DNA from: the human T2T-CHM13v2.0 reference genome, Homo sapiens
DNA length: 64,000 bases
Strand: one strand, 5' to 3'
Assembly: GCF_009914755.1 (NCBI RefSeq)
Contig: NC_060934.1
Below are positions 1,700 through 62,773 of this stretch, one piece after another. The notes below the pieces were generated by a model. The model was not told the DNA's origin. It searched no databases and saw nothing but the letters and a program-made list of their open reading frames with translations. A program made the translations under genes and the position numbers. Every line of letters starts with the position of its first letter. The stretch's first letter is position 1.

Positions 1700-2984
1700 C
1701 CTGCTCCTGGGGCCGTGAAGTACTGTGGGAAGAGGGCAGCTTTGGGCCAGCATTCACATCTCGGCTTGTGTGCTGCTCAGCCATGTGACCCGGGGCTGGG
1801 CAGCCTGTCTGAGTCCTGGCCTCCTCGTCTGTCAACACTGGATGTGTGGTGCTCCCTGGCAGAGCTGTTGTTGGGACTGGAGAAGGGATGTGCGGAAATG
1901 GACTTAGTATGACGTTGGGATCCTACTGTGGACTTAACTTTGTGGGCACAGGTGGAGTTAGGGCAGAAGCCGCACTGATTCCCTGAAGTATAATGTGAGA
2001 CAGTCTCTCAGGGGTTCCTGCTGCCCAGTGAGCTCCCGTGCACTGTCCAGGCTGGGCCACCCAGCAGTCTGTGGGAGTGGGTACACACACACTCTGCCAA
2101 TCCAGGCCCCATCCCTAATTGCAGATGCCCTGAGCAGGCAAGTGTGGATGCAGGCTTGGTGCAAGCAATCCTTAGGACTAGAGCCACAGCGGCTCGCATG
2201 GCTCCTGGTGGCACTAGGGCCCAGAGTCTGGCTTGTGGAGGGCGAGGCCATCCTGTTGGGAAGAGGAGGCAGGTGGGGCTGCTTAATAGCAGTGCTCAGC
2301 GTATCCTTGGCACCTCCGGCAACTCTCAGTTCAAGAGACACCTACAGACCACAGCACAGCAGTGATGGTGCTGACAGCCTTCAGGGTCTACCGTGTGCTG
2401 TGTGCAGTGCAGACAGGCTTTGGCTCAAAAGCACCTGCTGTTCTTCTCTCTGCCTGCTGGTGCCCAGGGTTGAGGTGGGAAGGAAAAAATGGGGCATGGC
2501 CAGTGAGAAGAGCACAGACTCTTTGTCTGCAAATGCCACTTGTTGTCCCTGTGCCAGAGCACAGCTCTGTGGACCCTGAGGTTCTGTTGTCCTGAGTTCT
2601 CTGTCACAGTGGGGAGTTCATGGCAGCAGGGAGGCCAAGCCTACAACCTGTGACTAGCAGACCCCTGCTGCCACTGAGCCCCTTGGTCTGAACTAGCTGG
2701 CACCCTGGTATGAGCAGGGGCTCACAGCACCCACGAGGCTGCTGGGGGAGAAAAGCCATCAGGATTCCTCCCTGGTCTGGGACCTGGCACCTGGTTGGTA
2801 CCTGCTAAGTGTCCAGGTCTGTGTAGCTGAATGAATGACGGTGTGTGCCAGGGCACCCACTGGAAGTCCTCAGGCTGGGTTCTGTTCTCAGGCAGTTTCC
2901 ACCCACTAGAGCAGAAGCATTCTGTCCAGAGTCAGCATAGGGAGGTCGAAAGCTCCTTAGCTCTGTATTTAAGTGGGGCATCCG

Positions 2985-4550: not shown

Positions 4551-7207
4551 CCACTTACTTTAAAATGCATTTTTTCCCTTCAGGGGAAAATTTAGCAGCT
4601 GTTATGATTTGCTGCTTTTTGTAAGAATTTTTTTTCAACTTCTAATGCATTAGACTTACCATAAGCTTCCTGCCAAGGTGAGAGCTTGCATTTAGTGAGT
4701 GATGAGCCTTACTTTATTTAATTATTAACTACAGTGATGGCTAGGCTGAGGGAAGGAAGTAGAGAATGTTAGGGTAATAGAAAAGAATTCAGAGTTCAGA
4801 TGTCCTGACATTTGCATTTTATAAAATTTCTATTCATGCTTCGGGGAGAAATAACTTTAAAATACTAGTGAGAGTAAGCAGCCCTTCCAAAAATTCAGTA
4901 TGTATTTTAAAGTTATTTTTCCTAGCTCTGTAGTGATACTTAGGTTTGAATAATTTATGACTCTTTTCTAAAAGTCAAAATTCACTTGACAAGGGCCAAT
5001 TCGATTTTTCTGAAATATTTTATATGAAATTAAAAGTCTTGTAGATACTAAAAACTTTGGAGAGTATCGGAAGAGAGAATGCTGGTAATGGCTCGCACTT
5101 TCTTCAGCGCCAGTTAGAGAAGGGTTTGGAATGTTCTCTCCTGTTCTGCAGGTGTGCTCCACATCCCCAGCCACTCAGGTCCCCAGAATGCGACAGGACC
5201 TGGAGGGCAGCGAGCTCGTCATCCTTGGTGTTTGAATGCCATCTATCTGTCCCAACCTGGTAGGCCACCTTCCTCCTGGGAAAACTGGAAAACCAAAGAA
5301 TTGCTTCTGATCAGATCCCTGGGAAGATGTTCACCAGGATGTAAAACTTGTCTAAAGAGGTGGGGGGTTCAGGCTGGCACTGTGGAGGCCGTGTTCATGC
5401 ATTCATCCCAGAAGCGGCTCCCCTGAGAGCAGGCTTGGGGTGTGGAGACTAGACCAGCATGGGGATGATCACGGCCCCTCCTGTCCTGCAAACCCCTGTC
5501 CTGCGACTTCTCCTCTTCTTCCTGGGACTGCACTTTCTAGGAGGAGGACATGGCATCCAGGATGCAGGAACAGCTGGTCAGGTGCTTGTCTTGGAGACAG
5601 GCTGGTGCCAAGGTGCAGTTGTAGGTTCTCTCGCTGGCTGGCATTCTGGGTGGGTGCCAGCCTGGCCCATGGGTACAAATTGGACTCTCTGGGCTGAGGA
5701 AGATGAAGGTGAAATCCTGCTTAGCTCCCAGGCCACTTTCGTGTTTAGACTGCCCTGAGCTGCCTGCTATTTTTGTGGCAGCTGTGGGCATTGCTAATAA
5801 ACACAGACTTGTACACCTGTGGGGTTAAAAGTAAGTTGACATAGCTTATGCATCAGTTTGGGCCCACGGGTCAGGAGCAGCCCTCAGTTTTCTCCATGAG
5901 TCAGGTGAGGAGAGAGTCCAAGGGTGAGGAGTAAATTCATTCCAATGGGAGGAGGAGTCAGCGTTCCCTCCAGGAAGCCACCAGGGCTCTCCTTCCTCCC
6001 CTCCATGAAAGAAGGAAGGGAAGGATCCAGAGGACAGAGTGGGGAGAAGGGAGGCAGGTGACATGGGAGGGACAGGAGGTGGGACAAAGAGAAGCAGGAC
6101 TTACTGGACCAAAGCCTTCTGATATCTCTTGGCATAGTCTGGGAGCTCAGCTCTGGGGACCGGGTGGCACCCAGGGCTGCAGGTCACCGTATCTGCAGTT
6201 CCCAAGTATCCGCTCCCTCCTCCTTGGAAGTTGGCTTCTTAGACACAAGGGAAGCACCTCAGAGACCCTCCTCCTATGAAATTGAGCCCTTGCCCTTGTG
6301 TCCTTGCGTGGCCTCAGAGCAAGGAGAGCAGCTCTTCCCACTGCACACAAGGGGAGGTGGGTGCCGCCACTTGCATTGGCCACCATCGTCCTAGTCACGT
6401 AGCAGTTTCCCTGAGTGTTGTTTAAAACAAAAGCCAACTTTTAGCCTGGAAGGCGGTGGAGAAGCACTGCTCTCTGACCATACTGGATGAAATCTCTTCT
6501 TAAAATAGTCTTCTAAGGGCCTACTGAAAATGAACAATTATAACAGGAATAAAGTGTGAAAAACGGCCCATTTTATTTTCTGGGTGCAAGTGGACTTCTT
6601 TTTTGTTGCTTTCTCTTAAACAGCTGCTTAATTGTGTTGGCGATCTTGCTTGGCTGCATTGGAGGATAAAAAACACACCAGCGTTTGCTTAAATCCAGAC
6701 TCCTACGCTGATTATTCTCATTTCTGATTTCAATGCAGCACGTCTTTTATTTGAACAGCAGCACCACGTTCTGTTCTTAGCTGAGGGCAGCACATAGCAG
6801 GTGATGGAATAACCCTGCCCGCCATGGTAGGAACAGAGGCACAGGAACTTGTAGCAATTCAAATGGCCGAGCTCTCTCGAACCTCCAAGTTTTACATGTG
6901 TACCCGGAATAACTATGGGTGTTTGTACAAGAACAAACATCAGGACTGGGGTATAATTTTCCCAAAGTAGTCACTCAAACTACCGTGGGTCAGAGATAGG
7001 AGAACAGGAAGCTCTCGTGGATGTCAACAAAATAAGGGAAGTTAAATGTATGCCGAATGCAAGTGGGTGTGCCAATGATGCGTCCTTGAAATCATCTCTC
7101 CTTGTGACCTGTTCCTTCTCTCTACCCCAGAGACAATGTGCCCAGATCATGGTGAATTTTAGATTCTTCCTGAAGGCGGGCTCCTAGGTTGTGGGGAGTT
7201 GGCTCTG

Positions 7208-7279
7208 CTGGTGGGGGAGGCCGGGGCTTGGCTGGTCAGGGAGGCCAGGACTTAGTTGGTGGGGGAGGCCGGGGCTCGG
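7208..7279. repeat. 24-bp G-rich tandem repeat, 3 copies
   Basis: ctggtgggggaggccggggcttgg / ctggtcagggaggccaggacttag / ttggtgggggaggccggggctcgg. Confidence 0.8.
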
Positions 7280-7732
7280 CTTGTCTCCTTGCTGGGTTCC
7301 CTGCGGCTGCAGGCTTCCCCCAGGAGGCAGTAATATATCACCACGCTATTGTCACAGGAGCTCGGGCAGCTGAAAAGTGGCCAAGGGACTCGGCCATCTG
7401 TATTTTCTATGGAAACATAATAGAATTCATTTTCCAATTGTTCATTGAGGTAAAAATGTTGAACTCAGTCTCCATGTATGACACTTCCAGGGCAATTGGA
7501 AACGGGGACGTTCGGGATGGCTGTGGGGGTTTCCTTGCTAATGCCATTTTGCACACTCACTGGTCTTACCCCCTCCTTGGTACCTGAGGCATTTCAGAGA
7601 TGTGCGAACCTGGAAGATGAGGAGCAGGTCTCTCCTGCACTGAAACGGGTTCCTGCTGGCACAGTGCGTCGCTCCTCTGCCCACAGGTTTATATTCAAGG
7701 CTGAAGAAGAGATAGCTGCCCAGCCTCAGGAG

Positions 7733-8213
7733 TGTTAGAAAGGAAAATGATTTGGGGCTGCTTTTCATGAAAAGGAAAGCCTTACCCAGGACTTCCCTAC
7801 CGCCACTATCTGCCTAAGTAATTTCTTCTTAACTCCTGTATCATTGCTCTCATCCATTACCCAAGAAGGAGGAAAAAGAGTCATGGGATGAGGGGGAGCC
7901 CACCAGGAAGTCCGCTGCTGGTGGTCGTCCATGGGAAGACAGCCCACAGGCATCTGCCACGTGACCGTGGCGGCCTTGCTGGCTGAGGAGGCACAGCGTG
8001 CCAGATGTTGTACAGGCTTTGCCTTTGCTCCCTGTCCTTCCTGCTGGCTCCCCCTCATCCTGTGACTCTTTTTCCTCCTTCTTGGGTAATGGATGAGAGC
8101 AATGATACAGGAGTTAAGAAGAAATTACTTAGGCAGATAGTGAGGGTAGGGAAGTCCTGGGTAAGGCTTTCCTTTTCATGAAAAGCAGCCCCAAATCATT
8201 TTCCTTTCTAACA
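7733..8213. repeat. Long inverted repeat: 168-bp arms (7733-7900 and 8046-8213) with a 145-bp spacer
   Basis: Base-by-base comparison gives 164/168 identity. The differences are two dinucleotides (left arm 7802-7803 and 7884-7885). Confidence 0.97.
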
Positions 8214-8975
8214 AAGAGCAGCGTGTAAAATCAAGCGGCAGCATAGACGCGGGCAGTTGTGCCAATCATGTTCAAAATGGCGGCTCCATCTTCCCTTCTG
8301 CCAGCCACCTGTACAGTAAGGAGCAGGCAAGATGGCGCTGGTCAAAGTAAGGAGCAGGCAAGATGGCGCTGGTCAAAGTAAGGAGCAGGCAAGATGGCGC
8401 TGGTCAAAGTAAGGAGCAGGCAAGATGGCGCTGGTCAAAGTAAGGAGCAGGCAAGATGGCGCTGGTCAAAGTAAGGAGCAGGCAAGATGGCGCTGGTCAA
8501 AGTAAGGAGCAGGCAAGATGGCGCTGGTCAAAGTAAGGAGCAGGCAAGATGGCGCTGGTCAAAGTAAGGAGCAGGCAAGATGGCGCTGGTCAAAGTAAGG
8601 AGCAGGCAAGATGGCGCTGGTCAAAGTAAGGAGCAGGCAAGATGGCGCTGGTCAAGGGGAAAGTTCATTTGTGTAATAAGATTAGGGTGGGGCGGGCAGC
8701 CTTCCCTGAGCGCTATGTAAACGTCAAGCCTGATCAAACCAATCTGTGAGCCCCACGTAAATCAGACACCACCTCCTCAAGCTGGACTAGAAAATCCAGC
8801 GCATCCACCTGCTGGCATTTTCCTCTGGGAAGTTCCCTCTCTCGCTCTCTCGAGAGAGCTGTTTTCCTTTCTCTTTTTCTTGCTCCTAAACTCCTCGTGT
8901 GTGTCCGTGTCCTAAATTTTCCTGGCACGAGAGGATGAACCCCAGGTGTTTACCCCAGACAAGGTAGCCATTTGG
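8103..8975 (+). mobile_element. ERV1 solo LTR, MER50-like, with an internal tandem expansion
   Basis: Starts tgatacaggagttaagaagaaattacttaggcagatag. Has a CCAAT box and a degenerate TATA, and ends taccccagacaaggtagccatttgg. Degenerate 4-bp TSD gcaa/gtaa. Confidence 0.85.
8315..8655. repeat. 31-bp minisatellite, 11 perfect copies, each with a YY1-type motif
   Basis: (agtaaggagcaggcaagatggcgctggtcaa)x11 = 341 bp, with no variant copy. Confidence 0.98.
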
Positions 8976-9340
8976 GTAACAGTCTGTCAAGTTTACCCCA
9001 AGGCCATGCAGTTTTGTTGTTGGCGGGATTTGCCTGTTTCTTTTGTAAAAATGTTGTTACAACTAAACCCAGATGAGTAAAGTGTGCCCATGGAACCCCT
9101 CAGTGGCATTTCTATAATTTGGAGTTTTAGCACAGTTAGAAAAGGCTCGTTCATATTAAAGTCTTTATTGCTCCAGTTTGAGGCTACTCAGAATGCACTT
9201 CCTCTCCCCACGTTCTGGCTCTTCCTCTCGACAGGTGCATATGTTCAAGTCTCCTAACCACACGTTACCACCCACTTCTCCCCTTATCACTCTAGAATCC
9301 GCGGTTTTTCAAAAATGCTTAACCATTTCCCAGTAAACTG

Positions 9341-9595
9341 GCGTAGGGGCTAAGAGACACCACTCTAAGGTCAGGCTCAGGCTTTGCAGGCTCACCTGCC
9401 CCTTCACGGCTGTGGCCCTGGCCTCTGTCAGGCTTTGCTTTGATTGGCCTCTGTGCTTTCGATTTCTTTCCTGGGAACTGAAGTTCTAACAATGGCCCAA
9501 CTCAAAGGCCAATCATGAGGATTAAGTGAAACAGCACATGTAAGTACTTAGACCAATGTTGAGCACACAGCGAGAACTTCATAAATCATCGACGT
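9341..9595 (+). mobile_element. MIR SINE
   Basis: gcctctgtgctttcgatttc...atgaggattaagtgaaacagcacatgtaagtacttag...gcacacagcgag. Confidence 0.7.
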
Positions 9596-9694
9596 TGTTA
9601 GGCAGGTCCAAAGTCCCAGTGATACATATTCTCTATTGTGTTTGAAAGCTCAAAAAATTGGAGACAAACCAAACAACAATCAAATAACTACCAG

Positions 9695-12600
9695 GTTTCT
9701 ACACCTGTTAATTTATGCTAGTTTGGACCAGCCCTCCCACTGAGAACACATGAAAAAGCTGGACAAAGAACTTAAAAAATCTGTTGGAAAGTATTAGAGA
9801 GTTATCAAGATGTAGGAAAGGAGAGGAGCATATAGAGGAGCCTGTTATTTGGGGTAGGTTTCACCCTAGAGATGTTTGCAGTTTTTGAAAACGATGGCCC
9901 AGAGGCTGAGAAGCAAAGCAAGTTCTCTGCAGGCACAGAGGACTAGGAAGACAGAACTTGAAGTAAAATTTTGATAACTAAAGGATGCACTTCGTAATCT
10001 CTAGGAGAAGCATAAAAAGAGTAGTAAAAGCATGTGCAACTGTCAAGCTGATAGAGATAGCAAATGGAAGAATAAAAAAAATCTAAAAGATGGCAAGAAA
10101 AGAGATAAAGGAGCATAGAAGAGTTAGGCAAGATAGAAAGTAAATAATAAGATTGTATGTTAACTTTCAAATACACCAGCAACCCTCACGCTTTGGTTTG
10201 GGACCTTAAAGATTTATAATTCAAGAAAAAAAAAAGAAATGGATAAACAAGAAATGGAGGCACCAATACAGACTAGCTTAAAATCACCTCAATCCGTGAC
10301 TGGATTAAGGTGATCAGGGATGACTTCTTCCCCTTGTTCCCCTAGTTTAGCTAACTAAAAGAAAAGATGAATACTTTCTGAAGGAAGATACACCACTCAA
10401 ATCCTCAAATTATCCCCACTGTTTTTCACATGAAAGTTTTCCATTTCATTAAAAGAAAACAGCTAGACATATGAGGAAACAAAGCATAACCAAAAATCAA
10501 AAGAACATAAGCAAACAAAACAGATCTACACAGTATCCAGAAGATAGGATTATTGACATGAAACTGTGGAGTTCTCTGACAAAAACTTTGTAATAGCAAT
10601 GCCTAATATATTTATGTAAATAAAAAGATCGAAGAAATTGACAAAGAATCGGAAACTATAAAAAACCCAAAATGCTAATTCTGTAACTGAAAAGTACAAT
10701 AATAGAAATTAACCATTCAGTAGCTGAGTTTAATGACAGATCAGATAAGTCAAAGGGAGAATCGGTAACCCTGAAGACATGTCAGAAGAACATATCCAAA
10801 CTTCAGTCACTGAGAGATAAATGGATTAAAAAATGAAAAACAGAAAAGTAATATTAGGATGAGTGATGTGAATTTTGTAAGAAGCAATGAATGAGTGCTG
10901 ATAATTCCTCATAGCCCAGCTGAGCACATAAAATTGGAGCTCAGAAGGCAAAAAGTGAGAAGAATAAAAGACATTAAATGACAAATTCAAGGAGTACTAT
11001 AAAACCTGGGGTAAATATTGAGAAAACTGCAGTAAGCAAATTATAGCAAAACAGCTGAAATCAAAGACAAAGAGAAATTCTTAAAAGGAGACAAAACAAC
11101 AAACAAACAAAAACAACCCACTTCTTACGTTCAGAGAAACAAGATTGATAGCTGACATTTTAACGAAAATGGTGAAACACAGGCAGCAACTAAAAAGATA
11201 GGTTTAAAGTGTTGAAGGAAAGTAACTACTTATCTAGAATTCTGCATGCTGTAACAATATTTTTCAAAAATGAAGACAAAGATTTTGAGACAAAGAAAAA
11301 TATCAGCACAGACAACAGTGATAGAAACAAACTATTATTATGCAGGCAGAATAATAATAATCCCAGATGGAAGTTGAGTGATACAGAGAGGAATTAAGAA
11401 CAAAGAGAATGGTAACTATGTGGGTATATTTAAAATAATATAATAATAATGTTTAATGGGTTTTAACAAGTATAGAGTCTTAAAATACATAATAGTATAC
11501 AAGTTGGAGGGTGGTTAATGGAGCTAATGTGTCCTAATTAGAAGGAAATAAATACACATATTAGGAAAAAGGCTAATAATTAATCATTAAGAAATCTACC
11601 TACAGAAGCAAATTAAACCCTAAGAAAGTAGAAGGATGGAAATAATTATAAGAGTATAAATTAAAGTAATAGAAAATAAATATACAATACAGAGATTTAA
11701 TGAAGCCAAAGTGGAATCTCTGAAAAGGGGCAAAGCCCTGCCTGGTACCACAAGAATTCAGGACTGCAAAGGGGTTAGTGCCACAGACCCTGCAGCCACC
11801 ACACGGATCACAGGTGACCAATCCCTGGGAGAAATTTCACAGAGATAAATTTGAACATTGGGATAAAATTATTAAATTCCTGGAAACAAATAGAAAAACA
11901 GACCCATGGGAAAATAAAAACTTTGAGTATTCTTTGCAGAATTAAATATGCCGAATTTATATTTTTATATACACACACACACCACACACACACACACGAT
12001 ACACTTCATTTTCAAAAGGTTTCAACAGCAGATCCTATCAAACTCTGATGGAAAAAATTATTCCAATCCACATGAGAGAACAAAAAAAGAAGCTACAGAT
12101 TCCAATTTCTTTCATAAGAGTCAAATAATGTGGAAGTGGAAATTTGACAAAGACAATACAAGAAAATAAAAATTGAGTTCGATGTCACTCACAAATGTAG
12201 ACTTTAAAATCCTCAGCAAAACATTAGCTAACCAAGTCTAGCAATGAATAAAATGATCATACATGATGTCCAACTCACATTTATTTTGGAATACAAGTTT
12301 GATTTAACATTTGAAAGTCAATCAGTGTAAGTCACCAAGGGACGAGAAGAAAAAAGACAACTCACGACATTTCAGTAGATGAGGGAAAAAGCCTTTGATA
12401 AAAACTCTTAGAAAATAAGGAAGTAAATATATAGAATTTAACCTGATGGTCACACAGAACGTCATATCAAATGGTGAAATATTCAAATATTTTCCCATAA
12501 AACTGGAAGCAAACAAGAATGTCCTTTTTTAAAAATACCATTTCCATTTAACATTATGTTAGAATTCATAGCCAGTGCAATAGCGAAAAATTAAAAAATA

Positions 12601-33187: not shown

Positions 33188-33459
33188 GGGGACATTGCCT
33201 TTTGCACAGTCAGCAGGATTGCAAGAGGGGACGTCACCCTCTGTACAGCCGGCAGAATTGCGAGAAAGGACACCGCCCTCTGCACAGTCAGCAGACTTGC
33301 AAGAGAGGACATCACCTTTTGCACAGCCGGCAGGATTGCAAGAGGGAACATCACCTTTTGCACAGTCAGCAGGGCTGCAACAGGGACATCACCCCCTGTA
33401 CAGCCGGCAGGGTTGCAAGAGGGGACATTGCCCTTTGCACAGCTGGCTGAATTGCAAAC
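33188..33459. repeat. 39-bp minisatellite, 7 diverged copies
   Basis: ggggacattgccttttgcacagtcagcaggattgcaaga-type units starting at 33188, 33227, 33266, 33305, 33344, 33383 and 33421. Confidence 0.92.
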
Positions 33460-47084: not shown

Positions 47085-47835
47085 TCAGCTGTTCAAACAG
47101 ATAAACCACAAACAAAGCCTCAGTGGCCTCACCCAATATAAGCTGACTTCTCACTCGTGTCCCTGCGCCATGTGAGTTGGGGGCCGGGGGAGGGCTCTGC
47201 TCCATGCAATCATTTAGTGCCTCAGGGGTCGTTCATCTTAGAGGTCATCTGGCATACTTCACTGGTGAGTGGGGCTGTTGACTTCTCACTCGTGTCCCTG
47301 CTCCACGTAAGTTGGGGGGCGGGGGAGGGCTCTGCTCCACGCAGTCATTTAGTGCCTCAGGGGTCATTCATCTTAGAGGTCATCTGGCATACTTCACTGG
47401 TGAGTGGGGCTGTTGACTTCTCACTCGTGTCCCTGCTCCAAGTAAGTTGGGGGGCGGGGGAGGGCTCTGCTCCACACAGTCATTTAGTGCCTCAGGGGTC
47501 GTTCATCTTAGAGGTCATCTGGCATACTTCACTGGTGAGTGGGGCTGTTGACTTCTCACTCGTGTCACTGCTCCATGTGAGTTGGGGGACAGGGGAGGGC
47601 TCTGCTCCACGCAGTCATTTAGTGCCTCAGGGGTCGTTCATCTTAGAGGTCATCTGGCATACTTCACTGGCGAGTGGGGCTGGAAGAGGGCGAGGGACCT
47701 CTCGGAGGGAAATGTGGGTAAAACCTGGGATTGGAGGCTCACTGTGGTCCACATTTGACAGGCCAGAGCACAGCTGCACACCCCGCCTCGTTCCAGGCAG
47801 GGTCTCAAGGATGGAGAGAGCACAGGTGTGGTGGC
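47085..47835 (-). mobile_element. Old MLT1J/K-like LTR remnant hosting the 135-bp repeat
   Basis: aaacaaagcctcagtggcctcacccaa...ttctcactc...agggctctgctcca..gcagtcatt resembles the recalled MLT1J/K consensus. Confidence 0.45.
47144..47682. repeat. 135-bp VNTR, 4 near-identical copies
   Basis: Units start at 47144, 47279, 47414 and 47549. Confidence 0.97.
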
Positions 47836-50380: not shown

Positions 50381-51495
50381 CTGGGGTCCCTGTTCTTGGG
50401 GTGCATGTGCTCCTGGGGTCTCCATTCTCAGGGTCTGTGTGCTCCTGAGGTCCCCGTTCTTGGGGTGCATGTGCCCCTGAGGCCTGCATTCTTGGAGTGC
50501 GTGTTCTTCTGGGGTCCCCATTCTCAGAGTGCGTGTCCTCCTGGGGTCCCTGTTCTTGGGGTGCATGTCCTCCTTAGGTCCCCATTCTCAGGGTGCACAT
50601 CTTCCTGGGGTCCCCATTCTCAGAGCGTATGTCCTCCTGGGGCCCCCATTCTCAGGGCGTGTATGCTCCTAGGGTCTCCATTTTCAGGGTGTGTGTGCTC
50701 CTGGGGTCCCTATTCTCAGGGTGCATGTCCTCCTGGGACCCCATTCTCAGGGTGTGCATCTTCCTGGGGTCCCCATTCTCGGGATACCTGTCCTCCTGGG
50801 GTCCCCATTCTTATGGTGCATGTGCTCTTGGGGTCCCTGTTCTTGGGGTTTGTGTGCTCCTAGGGTCACCATTCTTGGGGTCTGTGTCCTGAGGTTCCTG
50901 TTCTTGGGGTGCATGTGCTCCTGGGGTCTCATTCTTGGAGTGTGTGTCCTCCTGGGGCCCCCATTCTCAGGGCGTGTATGCTCCTAGGGTCTCCATTTTC
51001 AGGGTGTGTGTGCTCCTGGGGTCCCCATTCTCAGGGTGCATGTCCTCCTGGGGCCCCCATTCTCAGGATGCATGTCCTCCTGGGATCCCCCTTCTTGGGG
51101 TTCCTGTGCTCCTGGGGTCCCTGTTCTCGGAGTCTGTGAGTTTCTGGGGACCATGTGTTTGTGAGGTTCCTGTTCTCAGGATCTGTGAGTTTCTGGGGTC
51201 TGTGTGCTCCTGGGGTCCCTGTTCTCAGGGTCTGTGTGCTGCTGGGGCCCCTGTGCTCCTGAGGTTGCTGTTCTCAAGGTCTGTGTGTTTCTGGGGTCTA
51301 TATGCTGCTGGGGTCTCTGTGCCCCTGGAGTTCCTGTTCTTAGCATCTGTATGCTCCTGGGGTCCTTGTTCTGGAGGCCTGTGTTCTTGGGGTCCCTGTT
51401 TTCGGGGTCTGTGTGTTTCTGGGGTCTGTGTGCTCCTGGAGTCTATGGGCTGCTGATTTTCATTTGCTTCTGGGGGGTCATGCACTCCTGGGGTC
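50381..51495. repeat. Degenerate 32-bp minisatellite, roughly 35 unit lengths
   Basis: ctggggtccc(ca/tg)ttct(ca/tg)gggtgcatgt(g/c)ctc units that decay into half-units at the 3' end. Confidence 0.92.
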
Positions 51496-61550: not shown

Positions 61551-62773
61551 CACTAGTGTTTCTTCCTGGTGTCCTGGGAGTCTCACTAGCATTTCCTCCT
61601 GGTGTCCTGGGATTCTCACTAGCATTTCTTCCTGGTGTCCTGGGATTCTCACTAGTGTTTCTTCCTGTTGTCCTGGGATTCTCACTAGCATTTCTTCCTG
61701 GTGTCCTGGGATTCTCACTAGCATTTCTTCCTGGTGTCCTGGGATTCTCACTAGCATTTCTTCCTGGTCTCCTGGGATTCTCACTAGTGTTTCTTCCTGG
61801 TGTCCTGGGATTCTCACTAGTGTTTCTTCCTGGTGTCCTGGGATTCTCACTAGCATTTCTTCCTGGTGTCCTGGGATTCTCACTAATGTTTCTTCCTGGT
61901 GTCCTGGGATTCTCACTAGTGTTTCTTCCTGGTGTCCTGGGATTCTCACTAGTGTTTCTTCCTGGTGTCCTGGGATTCTCACTAATGTTTCTTCCTGGTG
62001 TCCTGGGATTCTCACTAGTGTTTCTTCCTGGTCTCCTGGGATTCTCACTAGTGTTTCTTCCTGGTGTCCTGGGATTCTCACTAGCATTTCTTCCTGGTGT
62101 CCTGGGATTCTCACTAGCGTTTCTTCCTGGTGTCCTGGGATTCTCACTAGTGTTTCTTCCTGGTCTCCTGGGATTCTCACTAGTGTTTCTTCCTGGTCTC
62201 CTGGGATTCCCACTAGTGTTTCTTCCTGGTCTCCTGGGATTCTCACTAGTGTTTCTTCCTGGTCTCCTGGGATTCTCACTAGTGTTTCTTCCTGGTCTCC
62301 TGGGATTCTCACTAGTGTTTCTTCCTGGTCTCCTGGGATTCTCACTAGTGTTTCTTCCTGTTGTCCTGGGATTCTCACTAGTGTTTCTTCCTGTTGTCCT
62401 GGGATTCTCACTAGTGTTTCTTCCTGGTCTCCTGGGATTCTCACTAGTGTTTCTTCCTGGTCTCCTGGGATTCTCACTAGTGTTTCTTCCTGGTCTCCTG
62501 GGATTCTCACTAGTGTTTCTTCCTGTTGTCCTGGGATTCTCACTAGTGTTTCTTCCTGGTCTCCTGGGATTCCCACTAGTGTTTCTTCCTGTTGTCCTGG
62601 GATTCTCACTAGTGTTTCTTCCTGGTCTCCTGGGATTCCCACTAGTGTTTCTTCCTGGTGTCCTGGGATTCTCACTAGTGTTTCTTCCTGGTCTCCTGGG
62701 ATTCTCACTAGTGTTTCTTCCTGTTGTCCTGGGATTCTCACTAGTGTTTCTTCCTGGTGTCCTGGAATTCTCA
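61551..62773. repeat. 33-bp VNTR, 37 copies
   Basis: (ctcactagtgtttcttcctggtgtcctgggatt)n with a few recurring single-site variants. Confidence 0.98.

What the first reader, a model, noticed from the sequence alone, without database searches (positions are those of the whole stretch)
8315..8655. Eleven perfect tandem copies of a YY1-site segment inside a MER50-type LTR
Seen: (agtaaggagcaggcaagatggcgctggtcaa)x11 with no variants, even at the CpG in each unit, inside an otherwise old and diverged LTR. Each unit contains CAAGATGGCG, and a further aaaatggcggc lies at about 8275-8284. The 31-bp period is about three helical turns, so the sites are roughly in phase. Established: AANATGGCG is the YY1/ZFP42 core, YY1 binding can be blocked by CpG methylation, and tandem YY1 arrays occur at imprinting control regions such as Peg3. 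Inference: this is a very recent, probably polymorphic expansion that makes a methylation-sensitive YY1 cluster whose strength depends on copy number.
Basis: partly seen in the sequence, partly recalled or inferred. Interest (0 to 1): 0.7.

Follow-up and report, generated by a model that had tools for sequence, protein, structure and literature searches.

The report
Young YY1-motif minisatellite in old LTR
A 31-base piece of an ancient retroviral LTR has recently been copied eleven times in a row, stacking predicted YY1 binding sites in a gene-poor region; this is a known kind of repeat and its regulatory effect is untested.

Summary
The array is real. Window 8315-8655 holds 11.0 copies of a 31-bp unit with 100% identity. 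Each unit carries AAGATGGCG, and a twelfth AANATGGCG site lies at 8274-8282. That makes 12 sites in the window against 0.71 expected by chance.

The host LTR (about 8103-8973) is not MER50. It gives no hit to two MER50 copies located from print. It does match the LTR that print calls LTR9, the shared DSCR4/DSCR8 promoter. Proviral relatives carry a tRNA-Pro primer site, which fits the HUERS-P3 group.

The unit is a native part of this family. It is single-copy in 26 of 26 fetched relatives and at 57 other genome places. The array is therefore a local, post-insertion amplification. The LTR is roughly 25-70 Myr old. The array's purity points to a few Myr at most, unless the units are being homogenised.

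A 168-bp inverted duplication that is 98% identical lies beside the array.

YY1 binding, methylation state and copy-number variation could not be tested here. Most likely this is a TE-derived minisatellite, a known kind. A regulatory role remains speculative.

The parts
8103..8973 (+). LTR of LTR9 type (HUERS-P3 group, ERV1). It stands alone, with no primer binding site and no internal sequence after it. It is 871 bp as it stands and about 561 bp without the ten extra units.
   Evidence: Matches to other copies start at window 8100-8105 and end at 8968-8973. The LTR matches the DSCR4/DSCR8 promoter LTR that print calls LTR9. There is no tRNA-Pro site after it: 237 of 500 shuffles score as well. 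Window 8974-10400 shows no multi-copy ERV homology.
8315..8655 (+). Minisatellite of 11.0 perfect copies of a 31-bp U3 segment. Each copy holds one AAGATGGCG core, at 8329-8337 and every 31 bp up to 8639-8647.
   Evidence: The unit is single-copy in 26 of 26 fetched relatives and at 57 other genome places.
8274..8284 (+). Second YY1-type motif (AAAATGGCGGC), native to the family, 45 bp upstream of the first array core.
   Evidence: ATGGCG is kept at this position in 11 of 27 compared copies.
8656..8973 (+). Rest of U3, then R and U5 of the LTR. By alignment to the DSCR4/DSCR8 LTR, the sense start site falls at about 8816 and the antisense start site at about 8715.
   Evidence: (mapping of the RefSeq gene ends onto the window).
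8046..8213 (+). Right arm of a young inverted duplication: 57 bp of flank plus the first 111 bp of the LTR.
   Evidence: 168-nt arms, 98% complementary, 145 nt apart; 164 of 168 identical.
7733..7900 (-). Left arm: the inverted copy of 8046-8213.
7901..8045 (.). 145-bp spacer between the two arms.

Best explanation
This is a locus-specific, post-insertion tandem amplification (a minisatellite) of a 31-bp stretch of the U3 region of an old, stand-alone LTR of LTR9 type (HUERS-P3 group, ERV1). It is not MER50. The stretch natively carries a YY1-type motif, so the amplification turned two ancestral motifs into a cluster of twelve. Shown here: the array, its purity, its uniqueness in the genome, the single-copy state in relatives, the family assignment and the ages. 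Inferred: the array grew by replication slippage or unequal exchange in a minisatellite-rich region 3.3 Mb from the chromosome end. It is probably length-variable among people and is most likely neutral. YY1 or its paralogues could occupy it wherever it is unmethylated.
For: Array. Unit native and single-copy elsewhere: one search finds 57 other places, none adjacent to another. One search finds the unit in 26 of 26 fetched relatives, with a second-best match of at most 10 of 31 (the DSCR4/DSCR8 copy L006 was set aside because its unit was misplaced). Family: one search is a local blastn with word size 7 and E up to 0.01. It matches the window's 5' piece to the DSCR4/DSCR8 LTR at 86.5% over 148 bp and 76% over 80 bp, and the 3' piece at 70% over 348 bp. 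The same search gives no hit to the two MER50 anchor regions. One search gives the print name LTR9 for that promoter. One search shows at least 8 of that LTR's best loci also hold the window's unit. One search finds a tRNA-Pro primer site after the 5' LTRs of provirus-like relatives: 15 of 18 and 16 of 18 letters, with 0 of 500 shuffles as good. One search gives the HUERS-P3 and HUERS-P3B pairing with LTR9 types in print. Age: one search gives three LTR pairs at K2P 0.121-0.140. One search gives the window's 5'-piece terminal branch as 0.052, against a mean of 0.062 for 20 copies. converts these to about 23-70 Myr. One search reports an LTR9B insertion shared by New World and Old World monkeys. 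Young array: 0 differences in 341 bp including 11 CpGs, although only 4 of 26 relatives still keep that CpG. Unstable locus: the inverted duplication is 164 of 168 identical. The window also holds several other minisatellites. Known kind: 7,276 of 31,472 human mini/satellites derive from transposable elements (PMC3389668).
Against: No population or ape data could be consulted, so recency rests on purity alone. Homogenisation by unequal exchange could hide an older origin. How the array started is unexplained. There is no microhomology at either junction and no partial terminal unit, which the slipped-mispairing model described in PMC3389668 would predict. Each unit forms only a weak hairpin (z -3.2), and no PRDM9-type 13-mer lies within 12 kb. 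No 4-bp target-site duplication was seen. This LTR also keeps more CpGs than any of 23 relatives. Its two pieces have 24.7 and 31.4 CpG per kb, against a mean of 13.7 and a maximum of 24.2. That could mean protection from germline methylation and so argues against plain neutrality. The family name rests on one print anchor, and the subfamily is unresolved.
Confidence: 0.75

Rival explanations
1. One reading: the array is a working, methylation-sensitive YY1 (or ZFP42/YY2) binding platform whose strength scales with copy number and which affects chromatin or expression nearby.
For: The motif is good: the core is 9 of 9, and 10 of 11 letters match the printed Peg3 motif. The site density, 11 sites in 341 bp, is higher than print gives for Xist (7 in 500 bp) and Peg3 (12 in 2 kb). 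The CpG is kept in all units, and this LTR is CpG-richer than 23 of 23 relatives. The array lies in U3, upstream of the start sites used in the DSCR4/DSCR8 LTR9. In print, LTR9 types act as promoters and are bound by OCT4.
Against: No binding, methylation or expression data could be consulted. The nearest annotated gene ends 36 kb away, and the nearest protein-coding genes lie about 320 kb and 579 kb away. No RefSeq enhancer or silencer overlaps the array. The array's CpG observed/expected ratio is 0.52, below the usual island threshold. The array is too young to show conservation. The LTR's own core-promoter and polyadenylation-signal segments are not intact when compared with three proviral relatives. 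In the passages read, no paper links YY1 to LTR9 specifically.
Confidence: 0.2
2. The repeats were already present in the virus's U3 at integration, as with the enhancer repeats of some retroviruses and LTR12.
For: U3 tandem repeats that spread by transposition are described for LTR12 (PMC3389668).
Against: The unit is single-copy in 26 of 26 fetched relatives and at 57 other places. The units are identical although the LTR has diverged by about 5% or more since insertion.
Confidence: 0.02
3. The array is an assembly artefact.
For: None was found. Perfect repeats are a classic source of length errors.
Against: A 341-bp array is far shorter than the long reads behind T2T-CHM13 (established knowledge, not tested here). 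The flanks are unique.
Confidence: 0.02

Closest known systems
Minisatellites derived from transposable elements (Ahmed and Liang 2012, PMC3389668)
   Same: A stretch of a transposable element is amplified head to tail at one locus after insertion, with unit identity of at least 95%. Print counts 7,276 such arrays, 23% of human mini/satellites.
   Different: This array has 11 copies at 100% identity, sits inside an LTR tens of Myr old, and its unit carries a YY1-type motif. I could not see their supplementary list, so I cannot say whether this locus is in it.
Tandem YY1-site clusters of the Peg3 and Xist differentially methylated regions (PMC4196374, PMC2761279)
   Same: There are many YY1 motifs in one orientation within a tandem repeat, and the CpG lies inside the motif. 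The motif matches 10 of 11 letters.
   Different: Per print, those clusters are conserved across mammals, lie in CpG islands at promoters of imprinted genes, and have demonstrated YY1 binding. This array is young and intergenic, is not a CpG island (o/e 0.52), and is untested.
LTR9 bidirectional promoter of DSCR4/DSCR8 (Dunn 2006, as cited in PMC11007075)
   Same: It belongs to the same LTR group. The amplified segment corresponds to U3 upstream of both start sites.
   Different: The chr21 copy is 822 bp and carries an extra segment of about 180 bp. No tandem array of the unit was found in the chr21 copy. The window copy has no annotated transcript.
U3 tandem repeats of LTR12/ERV9
   Same: These are also variable numbers of short repeats in the U3 of an ERV1 LTR.
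   Different: Per print, those repeats were in the source element and spread with it. Here the array is unique to one locus.
DXZ4 macrosatellite bound by YY1 and CTCF (PMC3287207; search listing and start of abstract only)
   Same: It is a tandem array with one YY1 site per unit, and binding goes with hypomethylation.
   Different: DXZ4 has 3-kb units in 12-100 copies, is X-linked, and has a chromatin role that has been shown.

Membership tests
   Print places MER50 copies 12 kb upstream of MFSD2A and 4.5 kb upstream of TNFAIP2. Within the stretches I fetched, the only non-Alu repeat shared by the two regions lies 12.9-13.4 kb and 4.5-5.0 kb upstream. It belongs to a family with 1,626 first-look candidates. 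The window LTR and two relatives give no hit to either region, although the same search finds the LTR9 anchor. Caveat: MER50B and MER50C were not tested.
LTR9 group (HUERS-P3 / HUERS-P3B, ERV1) | Sequence similarity to a copy that print names as LTR9 | tested here: met
   The window LTR matches the DSCR4/DSCR8 promoter LTR at 86.5%, 76% and 70% over 148, 80 and 348 bp, and print names that LTR. At least 8 loci are shared.
LTR9 group (HUERS-P3 / HUERS-P3B, ERV1) | Proviral members primed by tRNA-Pro (the 'P' in HUERS-P; that reading of the name is recalled) | tested here: met
   After the 5' LTRs of provirus-like pairs, 15 of 18 and 16 of 18 letters match the site derived from a host tRNA-Pro gene, with 0 of 500 shuffles as good. 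A third copy keeps only the first 8 letters.
LTR9 group (HUERS-P3 / HUERS-P3B, ERV1) | Assignment to a subfamily (LTR9, 9A1, 9B, 9C, 9D) by a repeat library | not testable with these tools
   No Dfam or Repbase library is available here. Short and long subtypes are visible, differing by 50-70 bp, but they cannot be named.
Solo LTR | No internal sequence or primer site next to it | tested here: met
Solo LTR | Short target-site duplication on both sides | tested here: not met
   GCAA lies before the LTR and TTTG or GGGT after it. This is weak evidence, given the element's age and an uncertainty of about 3 bp in its ends.
Minisatellite / VNTR | Head-to-tail copies of a 10-100 bp unit | tested here: met
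Minisatellite / VNTR | Copy number varies among individuals | not testable with these tools
YY1 binding-site cluster of the Peg3/Xist kind | Multiple strong YY1 motifs in a short interval | tested here: met
   There are 12 core matches in 374 bp, and 10 of 11 letters match the printed Peg3 motif.
YY1 binding-site cluster of the Peg3/Xist kind | YY1 occupancy and allele- or tissue-specific methylation | not testable with these tools
   No occupancy or methylation data are available here.
CpG island | At least 200 bp, GC at least 50%, CpG observed/expected at least 0.6 (criteria recalled) | tested here: not met
   The array has GC 0.55 and o/e 0.52. The whole LTR has GC 0.51 and o/e 0.46.

The most novel reading that the evidence does not exclude
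The array is a human-lineage, copy-number-variable docking platform for YY1 or ZFP42. The host LTR has escaped germline methylation, which would explain why it keeps more CpGs than any relative compared. On this reading the array works as a methylation-dependent chromatin anchor or as a variably methylated region in the 10q26.3 gene desert. It would be a newborn, small-scale analogue of the Peg3 or DXZ4 arrays, caught at the moment of birth.
Probability: 0.08. Interest if true: 0.55.

Novelty: new member of a known kind. Interest (0 to 1): 0.3.

Why it matters
If the array varies in length and is bound, it would be a clean natural dosage series (1 to 11 or more sites) for a methylation-sensitive architectural factor. 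It would also show how an old LTR can gain a new dense motif cluster long after insertion. As it stands, the finding is mainly a correction: the LTR is LTR9, not MER50. It is also a well-documented example of a young TE-derived minisatellite lying next to a young inverted duplication. Together these mark a locally unstable spot near the end of chromosome 10.

Tried and rejected
MER50 label. I tested it against two copies located from print and rejected it.

Other anchor regions. The SAMMSON 5' end (LTR1A2 in print) and my guessed AIM2 upstream region gave no hit. The guess was meant for MER41, which I recalled, and the AIM2 start site is uncertain, so that test is weak. The PRL 5' end (MER39, recalled) gave only one 90-bp hit at E 0.006 from a relative.

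Primer-site remnant after the window's LTR. It looked possible by eye. I rejected it because 237 of 500 shuffles score as well.

Internal ERV sequence downstream. None was found.

Coding potential. No ORF over 46 aa overlaps the array.

RNA families. None was found in 7000-10000.

Structure-driven instability. Each unit forms only a weak hairpin.

PRDM9-type 13-mer near the array. The nearest is more than 12 kb away.

Literature. No paper holds a 14-letter part of the unit. LTR9 with YY1 gave 7 papers. I read passages in 4 of them, and none links YY1 specifically to LTR9. LTR9 with VNTR gave 8 papers, of which I saw the listing only, and none is evidently about such an array. MER50 with YY1 gave 6 papers with no link between the two.

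Unseen supplements. Three may bear on the claims: Ito 2017 S16 Fig (LTR9 orthologues and bound factors), Ahmed and Liang Supplementary Table 3 (their list of TE-derived arrays), and the Yu 2023 supplement (exact MER50 coordinates).

Dating caveats. The 20 comparison copies were the best hits to the window, so the distances are biased low. The 3' part of the LTR is far more heterogeneous among copies (K2P 0.31) than within LTR pairs (0.14). I therefore did not use it to date the window copy.

Dropped row. In one search the unit was misplaced on an Alu-like stretch of L006, so I dropped that row from the unit counts (26 of 27 used).

Full report
OBSERVATION. The window reads as eleven head-to-tail copies of AGTAAGGAGCAGGCAAGATGGCGCTGGTCAA at 8315-8655. 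Tandem Repeats Finder gives period 31, 11.0 copies, 100% matches, no indels and score 682. No other array of five or more copies among the window's 41 TRF rows is as pure. The bases on either side do not continue the unit, so the array is exactly 11.0 units with no partial end unit. AANATGGCG occurs 12 times in the 64-kb window. Eleven are in the array and one is at 8274-8282, all on the + strand. Chance expectation is 0.71, and 0 of 100 shuffles reach 12. In the whole reference the exact unit occurs only at these 11 places. Another 57 places match with 1-3 mismatches, none next to another, and the backwards control gives 0. Matches in closed regions are not shown, so this count is a lower bound.

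THE HOST ELEMENT. Searches with the flanks show that homology to many other loci starts at window 8100-8105 and ends at 8968-8973, with 1,172-1,324 first-look candidates. I place the LTR at 8103-8973. Relatives are 561-582 bp long, so ten of the eleven units are extra. Downstream, window 8974-10400 has only ten short matches elsewhere, and the first begins at window 9716. Nothing after the LTR resembles a primer binding site: 237 of 500 shuffles score as well. I saw no 4-bp target-site duplication. The element is therefore a stand-alone LTR.

FAMILY. Print places MER50 copies 12 kb upstream of MFSD2A and 4.5 kb upstream of TNFAIP2 (Yu 2023, PMC10250217, passages). I fetched both regions. Their only shared non-Alu repeat lies 12.9-13.4 kb and 4.5-5.0 kb upstream and belongs to a family with 1,626 first-look candidates. 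The window LTR and two of its relatives give no blastn hit to either region.

The same search does match the LTR that spans the shared DSCR4/DSCR8 promoter on chr21 (fetched). The matches are 86.5% over 148 bp, 76% over 80 bp and 70% over 348 bp. A review states that DSCR4 and DSCR8 share an LTR9 (ERV1) bidirectional promoter (PMC11007075, passages, citing Dunn 2006, which I did not see). Searched against the genome, that chr21 LTR finds at least 8 loci that also hold the window's unit.

Three provirus-like LTR pairs of the family lie 7.4-10 kb apart. Behind their 5' LTRs is a site matching the 3' end of a host tRNA-Pro gene: 15 of 18 and 16 of 18 letters, with 0 of 500 shuffles as good. The third pair keeps only the first 8 letters. 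Repbase's table pairs HUERS-P3 with LTR9A1, 9B, 9C and 9D, and HUERS-P3B with LTR9 (PMC5753468, passages). I therefore file the LTR in the LTR9 group. The subfamily cannot be named without a repeat library. I did not use inner genes.

AGE. In three LTR pairs the two LTRs differ by K2P 0.140, 0.122 and 0.121. That corresponds to 26-70 Myr at 2.3 to 1.0 x 10^-9 per site per year (the rates are recalled standard values). For the window copy I compared the two pieces separately with 20 fetched copies. The 5' piece (8103-8345) differs from them by 10.5% on average, and its terminal branch by the three-point method is 0.052, against a mean of 0.062 for the copies. That gives about 23-52 Myr. The 3' piece is much more heterogeneous among copies (K2P 0.31) than within LTR pairs (0.14). 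This reflects differences between source elements, so I did not use it for dating. The copies were chosen as best hits, which biases the distances low. In print, one HUERS-P3b/LTR9B insertion in TRIM5 is shared by New World and Old World monkeys (PMC3597737, passages). That fits an anthropoid-age family.

THE ARRAY IS LOCAL AND YOUNG. The unit is a native part of the family's U3 and is single-copy in 26 of 26 fetched relatives, with a second-best match of at most 10 of 31 (L006 row dropped). Only 4 of those 26 still have the intact core with its CpG. Here all eleven units have it. With 319 non-CpG and 22 CpG positions, the median wait to a first substitution is 3.3 Myr if the CpGs are methylated and 5.5 Myr if not. 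The 95% bounds are 14 and 24 Myr (the rates are recalled). The array's units therefore most likely share an ancestor within the last few Myr, far later than the insertion. Ongoing homogenisation would mask an older origin. All units carry G at unit position 13. That letter appears in 0 of 26 fetched relatives and in 6 of the 57 other places, so it cannot be dated firmly.

NEIGHBOURHOOD. Directly upstream lies an inverted duplication. Its arms are 7733-7900 and 8046-8213, 168 nt each, 164 of 168 identical and 145 nt apart. The right arm is 57 bp of flank plus the first 111 bp of the LTR. Other LTR copies match the left arm in reverse. Four differences in two clusters suggest roughly 3-12 Myr. 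Two young rearrangements within 600 bp suggest a locally unstable spot. The window also holds other minisatellites, for example 33 bp x 37 copies at 61551-62773 and 32 bp x 23.5 copies at 50381-51128. It lies 3.3 Mb from the end of chr10. Minisatellites are known to be enriched towards chromosome ends (recalled).

HOW IT MIGHT WORK. By alignment to the DSCR4/DSCR8 LTR, the LTR-sense start site corresponds to about window 8816 and the antisense one to about 8715. The array therefore sits in U3, upstream of both. The reverse complement of the unit core, AGCGCCATCTT, matches 10 of 11 letters of the Peg3 YY1 motif GGCGCCATCTT (PMC4196374, passages). That paper describes about 10 such sites within tandem repeats in 2.5 kb. 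PMC2761279 gives 7 sites in 500 bp for Xist and 12 in 2 kb for Peg3 (passages). I saw the methylation sensitivity of YY1 binding only as the title of Kim 2003 in reference lists.

The cluster here, 11 sites in 341 bp, is denser than either. At 10.5 bp per turn, neighbouring sites are 17 degrees apart and the outermost sites about 171 degrees apart. This LTR keeps more CpGs than any of 23 relatives: 24.7 and 31.4 per kb in its two pieces, against a mean of 13.7 and a maximum of 24.2. It also has a higher GC content. That would fit either low germline methylation or GC-biased repair in a recombination-rich region. I cannot tell which.

Several points weigh against a regulatory role. The array is not a CpG island (o/e 0.52). 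No annotated gene lies within 36 kb and no protein-coding gene within about 320 kb. No RefSeq enhancer or silencer overlaps the array, and the nearest is at window 1736-2236. The LTR's own core-promoter and polyadenylation-signal segments are not intact when compared with three proviral relatives, with one substitution-type and one deletion-type difference. The array encodes nothing: its longest ORF is 46 aa, and there is no Rfam match.

VERDICT. The object is a young minisatellite born inside an old LTR9-type LTR. This kind accounts for 23% of human mini/satellites in print (PMC3389668, passages). It happens to multiply a YY1-type motif. Interest is modest unless copy-number, occupancy and methylation data show that the array is variable and bound.

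Noticed in passing
window 7733-7900 and 8046-8213 (spacer 7901-8045): A young inverted duplication with 168-nt arms, 164 of 168 identical and 145 nt apart. It copies 57 bp of flank plus the first 111 bp of the LTR in reverse. The four differences fall in two adjacent pairs.
   Followed up: partly
window 8103-8345 and 8656-8973, compared with L011-L033: This LTR copy keeps more CpGs (24.7 and 31.4 per kb) and has higher GC (0.48-0.50) than any of 23 relatives, whose CpG mean is 13.7 per kb, maximum 24.2, with GC 0.43-0.47. Low germline methylation or GC-biased repair could each explain this.
   Followed up: partly
L003-L005 and L011-L033 (LTR9-type copies): Among copies, the 3' part of the LTR is far more diverged (K2P 0.31) than the 5' part (0.12). 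Within provirus LTR pairs the two parts differ much less (0.14 against 0.09-0.13). There are also short and long subtypes differing by 50-70 bp in the 5' part. The family looks like a mosaic of subfamilies.
   Followed up: partly
L006:787-1608 (chr21, DSCR4/DSCR8 promoter LTR): This print-named LTR9 is 822 bp long. Positions 219-397 in LTR sense form an extra segment that most relatives lack, and part of it looks Alu-like. Both RefSeq gene ends fall inside the LTR.
   Followed up: partly
window 61551-62773, 50381-51455, 47144-47682, 33188-33457: Several other minisatellites share the window: 33 bp x 37.1 copies at 95%, 32 bp x 23.5 copies at 76% with overlapping 17/49/98-bp periods, 135 bp x 4.0 copies at 95%, and 39/78 bp x 6.9 copies.
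   Followed up: no
window 8656-8973, compared with L003, L004 and L005 (alignment A2): Compared with three proviral LTRs, the window copy's TATA-like and polyadenylation-signal segments are not intact, with one substitution-type and one deletion-type difference. The LTR's own promoter is therefore probably decayed.
   Followed up: no
window 7207-7281: A GC-rich 24-bp repeat of 3.1 copies at 74% identity sits in a stretch of GC 0.60, about 1 kb upstream of the LTR.
   Followed up: no
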